Positions 1-3,000 of a stretch of DNA of 21,375 nucleotides are shown here, piece after piece; within the stretch, counting starts at the first letter, position 1, and each line of letters opens with the position of its first letter. This DNA comes from Candidatus Micrarchaeota archaeon. Its GTDB lineage: Archaea > Micrarchaeota > Micrarchaeia > Anstonellales > Bilamarchaeaceae. The stretch covers positions 147,945 through 169,319 of the forward strand of contig JBBSVO010000002.1 in the NCBI GenBank assembly GCA_038046805.1, in the 5' to 3' direction. The position numbers were made by a program.

Positions 1-3000
1 GTTGTAGCCGCGACATTGTTCTTTACTTCTGTTGGCAGTGCATACAATGCCTGTTCTCCCGCGCAAAATGCGTTTGAGAATGAACAAATTCCTCATGGCC
101 AATGTTTAGGCACGATCCCCAAAACACAGGAAACGCAGGAACACCTATAAAATAATCTTGACGTGATAAATATGGAAGTCGAACGCGCACATGATATTCA
201 GGAACGAATTGACGAAATACTCTCAGTCATGGGGCCGGACATGGGCCACGTGATAAATGCAAGGATTATCTGCATGCGGAGCAGGGATGCAAAGGCACGC
301 GCATATGCGAGAATCTGGGCATTGCCTTCAATCTGGCAAAAGGCGCTTGAAATAAATCCATTTTATGTTATTGAGGTGCTAACTGAAAAGTTTGACAGGC
401 TCGGAGATGAAGATAAAACAAAGATTTTGATTCACGAGCTGATGCATGTTCCTAAAAAGTTTTCCGGGGGGCTTGTCCCGCACAATAACCGTGGTTGCAA
501 AATAGACCGTGTAAATGTAGATAAGGCGTATGAAAAATATCTGGAAAAGAAAAAACTTAAGGCAGAATCAACAGATTCTATTTTTCCCTGACTTGGTGCG
601 CACCTGAGTTTTATCTAGAAATAATAAAATAAAAAAATCGGAAAAATAAAAGAAAAATTATTTTACTGTCCAGCCTTCATTGATTCGCAACTAACTTCGA
701 CGGAGCCTTCATGACTTCTTACCGTTACTGATTCTGTATTTGGTTTGCAAACACTAAGAATCGGTTTTGAACAGGAGGAAGTTGGTGTGGCCATTTCAGC
801 TAATGAACATGCATTAGTAGTTGCACTGTCACCGTGTGGCAAAACATTAGACGCTAAATTCAAATCAAGACCAAAAATTCCCAACCTTTGACTCTAAACG
901 CTATACCAAAGCAACTTAACCATGGTTAAGTAAAAACCTTTTTTGGTTAACTTTATAAATATTAAGGATTATATAAAAACATGTACTTTACTACTGAGCC
1001 CAAGAGCAACAAGGAGGATTTTTTCAATTATGAGTATGAGTATAATGAACTTAAAAAGGCAATAGCAAGAAAAGAAAAGATCATCTCTGTTTTAGGGGTT
1101 AGAAGAGTAGGAAAAACAAGCCTCTTAAACATCTTATACCATGAGACAAAGGAGCTCAAAGTATGGCTTGATGGGAGAATCCTCTCAAATCCGAAGAAAG
1201 AGGTCTTTTCTGCCATATATGATGTTGTGAAAACAGGTAAATCTAAAATATTTGGAAAAATAGAAAGCCTGAATATTTCAGCTTTTGGAATAGGCCTTGA
1301 TGTAAAAATCGCTTCGGAAAGTTTAGTAGAAATAGAAAACAAAATTAGAAAAGCAGGTGCGTTTTATGTTTTTATAGATGAAGCACAAAAAGCGAATGTA
1401 ACTGATTTAGCAAATGTTTTGTCTTATTTTTATGATCGTTTTCCTAATGTTTTCTTTATTATTTCTGGCAGTGAAATAGGGCTAATTGAGGATGTACTCG
1501 GAGAAAATGATGGTGAACACCCATTATATGGTAGGCACATAACGAAAATTCTTATGAATCGGCTTGACAAGAGTAGGGGATTCGAATTCTTGAATAATGG
1601 TTTTGATCAATTGAAGACAAAAATAAAGAAAGAGGATATCTATGAAGCTATAGAGAAACTAGATGGTCTGATAGGCTGGCTTACGTTATATGGTTATGAA
1701 AAAGGAATTATAAAAAGTGAGAAAGCTCTTGAAAAAACCGTTGAAACTGCATCACGGATTGTTGCTTCTGAACTCACAAATTTTTTCAAAAGGACAAAGA
1801 ATAAAGGATTATATTTAACAGTGTTGAGAGAAGCAAAAGGAATAACATGGACTGAACTTAAAGTGAGAACTGAGCACGAACTTGGAAAACAATTAAACCC
1901 GAATTCTTTTACATCTGCATTAGAGAAACTTATAGATTATTCATTTTTGGAAAAAAAGGATGAAAAATATTATTTAGCTGACCCGCTGTTGTTAAAGGCC
2001 TCGTTCTTAGCTGCTAAATGATTAAAGCTCATTACCGCTCAGAGGTCTGTAGACGAGATGTTAAAAATGCTGCTCTAAGTGACCATGCTAGACCACTGCT
2101 ATAAAAAGCTTGTCTTGAAGGCACATTGCCCGGAACGCAAGACCCTAAATCCAAGACCCGAAACTGGAAACCCGAGACCCCTTATTTTGCCCATGCAACC
2201 TTTTGCTTCACTCAAATATGGCCCTTCCCATTCTAATAAACTTTACTGCGTTATCATTACCATAAACGTATGCCAGAATAAGTTCCTTTCTCAGTTTCCC
2301 TGAGGCTTCAAACAATTTATTTATTCCCTTCAAATCAGTAGTCCATTCCTTTGGAACAACTAGAACAACATATTTCGTCCGGTCTTCCCCGGCACGCAAT
2401 CCTTTCTGATGAACACGGATGAAATCAACTGCCGGTGCATTCCCGTCCTCGCCATTACCCACTTCGTTGCTCATCCTGCACACGTATCCTTTGCTCCACA
2501 AGTGGCGGATCACCGCGAGTTTATCCTCAGCAAGCGGATCTTTTTTCATTTGTTCCGCGATTATTCTCTTTGCGTCTTCGGGAGTTCCAATTACTCCGCG
2601 TTCGAAAAGATATGCCGCAAGGATTGGCGGCACAACAACATTCTCAACAATGTTCGGAATTGCGCCCATTCTGTAAAGTTTCTGTACTGTGTCTGGTTCT
2701 GAAACAGTAATTTTCTTCTCGGGTTCTTTTTTCTCTTTCATTTTCGTCCACCTTTTTTATCGCGCTTGTTCTGTTCGGTATGCCCCGCCTTTTTTATCAA
2801 TGATGCTTACGATTTTTTTCATGTCTTCTTCCGTTATTCCACCCATCCGTACCTCAATCTTTTCAGTGCCTGCAGTATCTATCTCAATTGTTCCAACCTT
2901 AAGCATCCGTTCTATCGGGTCCTGCTTCATGTTCACGCTCGTAATCCTGTCATAATCCGCGTGAAAAGTTTCTTTTGTTATAATCCCGCTCTCTGCAATT

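What a model noticed while it worked through the whole genome (the two positions that open the first line are those of the whole stretch)
2208..2741. A second, catalytically dead splicing-endonuclease subunit is kept beside the epsilon2 EndA
Besides the three-unit epsilon2 tRNA splicing endonuclease (g1097, C8:1957-3138), the genome encodes an unannotated 177-aa single-unit EndA homologue (g205) that lacks the catalytic Tyr and His but keeps the Arg-Lys pair. It is single-copy and near-universal in this intron-rich family, a part not described for ARMAN-2.
Evidence so far: A profile of 15 orthologues hits only EndA structures in PDB, best M. jannaschii 1a79 E 4e-15 over positions 3-143 of 155; its KYGADFR and HS motifs align to other residues. 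g1097 is the ARMAN-2 type (4fz2, E 1e-137, call 142). Orthologue in 92 of 98 family genomes and 8 of 77 others of the order at E<=1e-8. AlphaFold model pLDDT 81.
(Added by a program. Inside this text positions count along the whole contig: contig position 147,945 is position 1 of the stretch shown here. "Call 12" and the like, gene names such as g00115 and contig names such as C1 are that model's own, and its searches are not shown. The text may have been shortened before it was handed on; [...] marks where a part breaks off. The agent that wrote the report below was given it as the finding of a first reader that could run no searches.)

Follow-up and report, generated by a model that had tools for sequence, protein, structure and literature searches.

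The report
Disarmed second tRNA-splicing endonuclease in Micrarchaeota
This tiny archaeon keeps, alongside its working tRNA-splicing enzyme, a conserved second copy of the older form of that enzyme that has traded its cutting histidine for an arginine and so probably grips RNA without cutting it, while a few relatives still carry that older enzyme with its cutting parts in place.

Summary
The ORF is real: 177 aa, single-unit EndA fold (pLDDT 88.7), purifying selection (dN/dS 0.12), found in 95 of 98 family genomes; this genome's epsilon EndA is intact. Corrections: the catalytic Tyr is that of 'RVY'; here it is His111, but many orthologues keep it. The shared change is catalytic His to Arg/Lys (107 of 108 sequences, three families); the catalytic Lys is mostly lost in one family. 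It is much wider than reported (42 of 62 other genomes of the order; other orders too). It lacks the acidic L10 loop, so it is no standard beta subunit. It resembles alpha4 catalytic subunits: two genomes (G212, G269) encode a fully intact copy plus an intact epsilon, G269's in the same gene context, with part-decayed copies in relatives. It was not found in ten ARMAN-2-like genomes, and retention does not follow tRNA-intron load. Best reading: the older alpha4 enzyme, made redundant by epsilon2, became a non-cutting RNA-binding protein (0.55); binding, target and inactivity are untested. The scan noted this paralogue twice before on other genomes; the summaries shown do not mention the intact copies or the intron test.

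The parts
2208..2741 (-). Single-unit EndA paralogue P0001 (177 aa). His111 at the catalytic Tyr position, Arg121 at the catalytic His position, Lys152 = catalytic Lys; conserved basic residues R89, R109, K113, R116, R121, R151, K152, R170; 10-residue insertion 94-103 seen only in this genus
2757..3236 (-). Membrane protein with bacterial PH domain (PF03703), 15 bp upstream and co-directional; the same gene stands upstream of many orthologues and of the intact copy in G269, used as synteny marker
3301..3696 (+). RNase HI, divergent neighbour conserved in most family loci read; context only
163..591 (+). PF18894 metallopeptidase, convergent neighbour conserved in families f1, f2, f5 and others; in three loci of genera g3/g5 it lies between the paralogue and the epsilon gene; context only

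Best explanation
The protein descends from the catalytic subunit of an alpha4-type splicing endonuclease that early Micrarchaeia carried together with the fused epsilon2 enzyme. With epsilon2 doing the cutting, the alpha4 gene was lost in some lineages, kept intact in a few, and in others converted: the general-acid His became Arg or Lys, the bulge-holding residues (K228, R275 equivalents) and the L10 assembly loop went, and a basic face around the old active site was kept. It most likely works as a non-cleaving RNA-binding protein, probably a dimer through its C-terminal strand, that holds or shields a structured RNA (bulged helix of pre-rRNA or pre-tRNA, or a cut intermediate awaiting RtcB). 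Shown: fold, residue states, purifying selection, distribution, intact copies beside epsilon. Inferred: orthology of intact and decayed copies (synteny good, tree backbone weak), loss of cutting, RNA binding, dimer. Not known: the target.
For: Gapless alignment to 1a79 across the catalytic region. His position is Arg/Lys in 72 of 73 f1, 24 of 24 f2, 11 of 11 f5 sequences; K228 and R275 equivalents and L10 not conserved. Among 110 sequences of the order, positions 89, 109, 113, 121, 151 are basic in 90-100%, G114 is invariant, median pI 9.2. dN/dS 0.12 against G098. G212 and G269 encode a single unit with Tyr, His, Lys, K228, R275 and L10 and a separate epsilon gene with its triad. G269's copy follows the same PH-domain membrane gene as this one. 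In the clade holding both intact copies (support 94/88) relatives show His to Arg (G177) and His to Lys (G197; also G182 and G202), a separate arrival at a basic residue if the tree holds. One clade for all 34 such single units is not rejected (p-AU 0.535; constrained tree 1.79 log-likelihood higher). All 10 paralogue-bearing genomes checked in other orders also have epsilon.
Against: No binding or activity data. The tree backbone is unresolved: the free tree needs 2 changes for the group, and only 2% of bootstrap trees hold it as one side. Intact copies are known from only two draft genomes (82% and 73% complete; G269's contig is 5 kb). f16 copies lost the basic residues at R89, R109 and R121, and f20/f29 copies have Pro at the His position, so the basic face is not universal. 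Retention does not follow tRNA-intron load, which weakens pre-tRNA as the target. Conserved neighbours (membrane protein, RNase HI, methylase, HerA, peptidase) are not RNA-processing genes.
Confidence: 0.55

Rival explanations
1. It is still a ribonuclease with a rearranged site (His111 or Tyr as base, Arg121 and Lys152 holding the phosphate) that cuts some RNA other than standard BHB introns.
For: The Tyr position holds only Tyr or His in 71 of 73 f1 and 24 of 24 f2 sequences; Lys is invariant in f1 and f5; the loop around the old site is the best-conserved part of the protein.
Against: No general acid is left; His251Ala abolishes ARMAN-2 cleavage (PMC3488258); f2 lost the Lys in 21 of 24; f5 has Tyr in only 3 of 11; bulge-holding K228/R275 equivalents are gone.
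Confidence: 0.17
2. It is an accessory or regulatory partner of epsilon2, for example taking epsilon's L10 loop in its partly kept pocket and so damping or redirecting the enzyme.
For: Two of three pocket positions stay basic (R89, R109). In 15 of 92 family genomes with both genes (all of genera g3 and g5) they lie 0.4-2.7 kb apart on one strand. Every paralogue-bearing genome checked has epsilon or is incomplete.
Against: No conserved L10 loop and the L10-binding Lys228 equivalent is mostly Asp in f1; epsilon2 is active alone (PMC3239211) and nearly the same epsilon is found without the paralogue in f15, f19, f17; an antisense gene separates the linked pair in the 3 loci read; the other 77 genomes show no linkage.
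Confidence: 0.13
3. It has left RNA splicing and works with its conserved neighbours, for example binding RNA:DNA hybrids or DNA with RNase HI and HerA, or the cytoplasmic PH domain of the upstream membrane protein.
For: The PH-domain gene is co-directional and closely spaced in many f1 and f5 loci, in f11, f12 and G269; RNase HI and HerA recur nearby; no relation to intron load.
Against: The neighbourhood is not kept in f14, f16, f20, f25, f29 loci, and the PH-domain gene already flanks the intact enzyme in G269, so the link predates the change.
Confidence: 0.1
4. It is a slowly decaying relic without a job.
For: Not found in several families; evolves about eight times faster than epsilon in amino-acid changes (dN 0.128 against 0.015).
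Against: Open frame in 95 of 98 family genomes of 23 genera with no stop inside any match; dN/dS 0.12; invariant motif residues.
Confidence: 0.05

Closest known systems
alpha4-type EndA catalytic subunit (M. jannaschii, PDB 1a79; DPANN alpha4 enzymes)
   Same: Single unit of 140-190 aa with both subdomains; gapless alignment over the catalytic region; best single-domain PDB match of the profile; the G212 copy matches 1a79 at E 6e-34 with all key residues.
   Different: P0001 lacks the catalytic His and Tyr, the K228 and R275 equivalents and the L10 loop, and shares its genome with a complete epsilon enzyme.
Structural beta subunit of (alpha-beta)2 EndA (N. equitans NEQ261, PDB 3iey_B/3if0; TACK beta subunits)
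   Same: Non-catalytic single unit of the same fold; top Foldseek match (TM 0.68, catalytic subunits score 0.66-0.69).
   Different: Beta subunits donate an acidic L10 loop to a catalytic partner that needs them; this family has no conserved L10, no NCBIfam beta hit at E<=0.01, and the genome's catalytic enzyme is self-sufficient.
epsilon2 EndA of ARMAN-2 (PDB 4fz2, 9w2k)
   Same: The genome's main enzyme is of this type (E 1.2e-137); the paralogue aligns to its alpha unit (probability 98.8).
   Different: One unit, not three; separate from the epsilon alpha clade (100/100); not found in 10 of 10 genomes of the two families that include the closest ARMAN-2 match examined.
Eukaryotic non-catalytic TSEN subunits (Sen54, Sen15)
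   Same: Disarmed EndA-fold paralogues kept beside active ones; Sen54 contacts RNA (PMC12397907, section 16).
   Different: They are obligate parts of one heterotetramer; no such complex is shown here, and sequence similarity is marginal (E 0.26).

Membership tests
EndA / tRNA-intron endonuclease fold | N-terminal and C-terminal subdomains of one EndA unit | tested here: met
   Pfam hits to both, profile against PDB, model pLDDT 88.7 and Foldseek TM 0.58-0.69 to archaeal EndA units in the top ranks
Catalytic alpha subunit (alpha4 type) | Catalytic triad Tyr, His, Lys | tested here: not met
   His111, Arg121, Lys152 in P0001; His absent in 108 of 108 f1/f2/f5 sequences. Met in the G212 and G269 copies.
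Catalytic alpha subunit (alpha4 type) | Bulge-holding Arg (R275) and pocket Lys (K228) | tested here: not met
   Glu145 at R275; K228 position mostly Asp in f1 (57 of 73)
Catalytic alpha subunit (alpha4 type) | Cleaves BHB RNA | not testable with these tools
   needs an assay
Structural beta subunit | Conserved acidic L10 loop | tested here: not met
   First L10 position Asp in 34 of 73 f1 sequences, second position variable; neither conserved in f2 or f5; no beta-model hit for P0001
Structural beta subunit | C-terminal strand for beta-beta pairing | tested here: met
   Strand 165-171 in the model; F168, basic 170 and F176 conserved. Its partner is unknown.
Structural beta subunit | A separate catalytic subunit in the genome that lacks its own structural unit | tested here: not met
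   Only other EndA in G000 is the three-unit epsilon gene with L10 Asp363/Glu365 invariant in 23 of 23 sequences
epsilon2 EndA | Three fused units with the ARMAN-specific loop | tested here: not met
   P0001 is one unit; met by P0002 on C8

The most novel reading that the evidence does not exclude
Micrarchaeia preserve a snapshot of the switch from alpha4 to epsilon2: some still run two splicing endonucleases of different architecture side by side, and in several lineages the old enzyme was independently turned, by His to Arg/Lys, into a dedicated reader of bulge-helix-bulge RNA that guards or hands over splice sites or pre-rRNA stems: a stand-alone pseudo-endonuclease, a fifth role for the EndA fold in archaea.
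Probability: 0.3. Interest if true: 0.8.

Novelty: new variant of a known kind. Interest (0 to 1): 0.6.

Why it matters
The origin of the epsilon2 enzyme is called elusive (PMC5829648) and an alpha4-to-epsilon2 transition was proposed without intermediates (PMC3488258). Genomes with both an intact alpha4-like gene and epsilon, plus a graded series of disarmed copies, make that transition testable with purified proteins. A stand-alone disarmed EndA kept under selection next to a self-sufficient enzyme is outside the four described archaeal types, and would be an archaeal parallel to the non-catalytic subunits of the eukaryotic enzyme. If it binds RNA, it points to a processing or protection step not covered in the papers I read.

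Tried and rejected
Complex prediction of epsilon with the paralogue, both as alignments, one copy each: no verdict, score 0.00, controls not folded; no evidence either way. Expression: one aquifer metatranscriptome holds contigs identical to window 2281-2580 and 2700-2999, but also to four other stretches, and contigs cannot show transcription; not used. Link to intron load: rejected; genera g3 and g5 keep the gene with 34-37 clean tRNA matches, while G168 (5) and G228 (13) show only epsilon matches over the cut-off; clean-match counts are a proxy, capped at 37. Operon with epsilon: rejected for the three linked loci read, an antisense gene lies between. The single-protein PDB search gave only 3iey_A at E 1.4e-4. 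Sigma-70 promoter/terminator scan: chance level and not suited to archaea. FastTree of 252 units left the backbone open. My first mapping of the catalytic Tyr to the K-Y-G motif was wrong and was corrected from PMC3488258. Cluster look-ups gave few names. Literature searches listed no paper whose title or abstract start describes a second EndA in Micrarchaeota; two returned nothing; most subscription journals are outside the library, and I read no supplements (the EndA trees in the supplements of PMC5829648 and PMC12918454 could contain such sequences). No search for longer or shorter fused forms in the 90% database was run; the all-length search and the loci showed one fusion (G209).

Full report
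Observation. The window holds a 177-aa ORF at 2208-2741 on the minus strand (P0001). Pfam gives weak hits to both EndA subdomains. A profile of 37 orthologues finds 14 PDB sequences at E below 1e-5, all splicing endonucleases; the best single-domain score is the alpha4 enzyme 1a79, 76.6 bits over profile positions 7-154 of 159. The AlphaFold model has pLDDT 88.7 and Foldseek ranks EndA chains first, structural and catalytic subunits about equally (TM 0.66-0.69). The only other EndA match in this 86%-complete genome is the three-unit gene on C8, which matches ARMAN-2 4fz2 at E 1.2e-137. RtcB is present. Record titles of the 56 loci mostly name Micrarchaeota and one names Bilamarchaeaceae, so that is probably the family (inference); the order name Anstonellales is recalled, from no call.

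Residue mapping. PMC3488258 (parts 2-5 of 6 read) gives the ARMAN-2 triad as Y236, H251, K282, each essential, the L10-pocket bridges D357-K228 and E359-R234, and R275/W384 for RNA recognition; PMC12397907 (abstract and sections 12 and 16 read) adds that K228 and R275 hold the bulge. Counting along the 4fz2 alignment puts Y236 in the F-R-I-Y motif. In P0001 the positions are His111, Arg121 and Lys152. Across 73 distinct f1, 24 f2 and 11 f5 sequences that I fetched (a part of all matches), the His position is Arg or Lys in 107 of 108 and His in none; the Tyr position is Tyr in 27, 22 and 3; the Lys is kept in 73, 3 and 11; the K228 and R275 equivalents and the L10 loop are not conserved. Among 110 sequences of the order, five positions around the old site are basic in 90-100% and G114 is invariant. 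Against G098, dN/dS is 0.12, like its neighbours (0.03-0.15), while epsilon has 0.017.

Distribution. P0001 finds 95 of 98 family genomes, 92 at E<=1e-8, one match each except G074; epsilon is found in 94 of 98. With a wider profile, 42 of 62 sampled genomes of other families of the order score E<=1e-27, well beyond the best epsilon match listed (4.5e-21): f2 29 of 30, f5 11 of 18, f3 and f11 one each. Of 258 sampled genomes of other orders, 17 score so, and I read single-unit copies in five more (four f16, one cut f25). Full searches of two orders found it in 9 of 10 and 9 of 29 genomes. In ten f15/f19 genomes, seven of them single contigs, every match lay in the epsilon gene; the f15 genome G327 has an epsilon matching 4fz2 at E 6e-166, so ARMAN-2's kin appear to lack the gene, which would explain why it was not described. 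Absence means not found with these queries: G174 has a very diverged copy recognised only by synteny and profile comparison (probability 96.4). The unpublished genomes G244 and G382 enter only the f15 and f19 tallies.

Intact copies and a decay series. G212 (f14) and G269 (f34) encode a single unit with Tyr, His, Lys, K228, R275 and an acidic L10 loop; the G212 protein matches 1a79 at E 6e-34 and both pass the TIGR00324 cut-off. Both genomes also hold an epsilon gene with its triad, as do the eight other paralogue-bearing genomes checked. In G269 the gene follows the same PH-domain membrane gene as here. Relatives show steps of loss: His to Arg with L10 kept (G177), His to Lys with L10 lost (G197, G182, G202), His kept with the pocket lost (G192), His to Pro (f20, f29), His to Lys (f25). 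In a 71-row IQ-TREE tree (a subsample of 252 units) the intact and part-decayed f14/f34 copies form one clade (94/88), the epsilon alpha units another (100/100); the 34 Micrarchaeia-type single units need two changes because three intact proteins of unknown origin fall among them, and the backbone is weak. Holding the 34 together is not rejected (p-AU 0.535), which does not prove a clade. Seven of the 34 are unnamed database proteins assigned by similarity.

Context. The usual order in the family is methylase, RNase HI, then PH-domain membrane gene and paralogue, followed by a convergent metallopeptidase or HerA. In 15 of the 92 family genomes with both genes, all of genera g3 and g5, epsilon lies 0.4-2.7 kb downstream on the same strand, with the antisense peptidase between them in the three loci read; the other 77 show no such link. 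Clean Rfam tRNA matches, a proxy for few introns, range from 3 in this genome (lowest of 121) to 37; 8 of 16 sampled family genomes have 33 or more and all 16 keep the paralogue, whereas G168 (5) and G228 (13) show only epsilon. Retention therefore does not follow intron load.

Mechanism. Shown: fold, residue states, selection, distribution, and co-occurrence of intact alpha4-like and epsilon genes in two drafts. Inferred: the paralogue is the older alpha4 enzyme, made redundant by epsilon2 and kept as a non-cutting RNA-binding protein; a basic residue in place of the general acid would grip the phosphate without releasing the leaving group, and loss of L10 would stop the four-unit assembly that cleavage needs, leaving perhaps a dimer through the conserved last strand (0.55). 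Rivals: a nuclease with a rearranged site (0.17), a partner or damper of epsilon2 (0.13), a job with its neighbours (0.10), a relic (0.05). The target RNA is unknown; pre-rRNA stems are as plausible as pre-tRNA.

Comparison with what is known. It belongs to the EndA fold but fails the tests for a catalytic alpha, a structural beta and an epsilon subunit. PMC3239211 (parts 2-3 of 5 read) took one annotated endonuclease from each ARMAN genome; PMC5829648 (passages found by term) calls the origin of epsilon2 elusive and knows it from ARMAN-1, ARMAN-2 and Mia14; PMC3488258 proposes an alpha4-to-epsilon2 transition; PMC12918454 (passages) sorts EndA into four types. None of the text I saw mentions a second EndA beside epsilon; six searches listed none, supplements were not read, and the library lacks most subscription journals. 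The scan's own notes hold two earlier reports of this paralogue on other genomes, seen after my analysis; they agree and are not independent support.

Verdict. A real, conserved, disarmed EndA paralogue: a new variant of a known kind, interest 0.6. Its value lies in the intact-to-disarmed series beside epsilon2, which can be tested with purified proteins; function is not shown.

Noticed in passing
L176:3040-3549 (G212) and L178:3015-3521 (G269): Fully intact alpha4-like EndA genes in genomes that also encode an intact epsilon EndA: two architectures in one draft genome.
   Followed up: yes
G000 C8:1960-3138 and class-wide searches: The epsilon-type gene is found in 94 of 98 family genomes and across the other Micrarchaeia families examined, far beyond the three organisms named in PMC5829648.
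   Followed up: partly
L188:3004-4095 (G209): The paralogue is in one frame with an N-terminal HAD-family phosphatase (364 aa); real fusion or chance read-through not tested.
   Followed up: partly
G000 whole genome; C3:110603-112290: Extreme tRNA disruption: 3 clean Rfam matches, lowest of 121 genomes; ARAGORN finds 10 tRNAs, 9 with introns, one tRNA-Glu with a predicted 1605-base intron; several introns seem to share short repeated words.
   Followed up: partly
window 4970-12452 (+), then 12466-16131 (+): Seven consecutive hydrophobic proteins of 330-690 aa that look paralogous by eye, followed by a 1221-aa cysteine-rich protein with a signal-like start; the first has only a faint pilin hit (E 0.19), the second none.
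   Followed up: no
window 16136-21375: No long closed ORF is listed, only antisense shadows, suggesting a very long plus-strand gene running to the contig end.
   Followed up: no
window 981-2021 (+): An archaeal AAA ATPase (PF01637) sits between the peptidase and the paralogue; the ATPase query matched none of the related loci printed, so probably a lineage-specific insertion.
   Followed up: partly
L277:2068-2529 (G174): A very diverged syntenic copy that profile searches nearly miss; absences elsewhere may hide such copies.
   Followed up: yes
Genera g3 and g5 (for example L044, L048, L051): These genera have few interrupted tRNAs, a more diverged epsilon (54-61% to this genome's, against about 70% in most others) and the two EndA genes close together.
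   Followed up: partly
P0100, P0103, P0125: Intact alpha-type proteins of unknown origin that share the family's active-site loop and fall among the Micrarchaeia single units in the tree; candidates for the sister lineage.
   Followed up: partly
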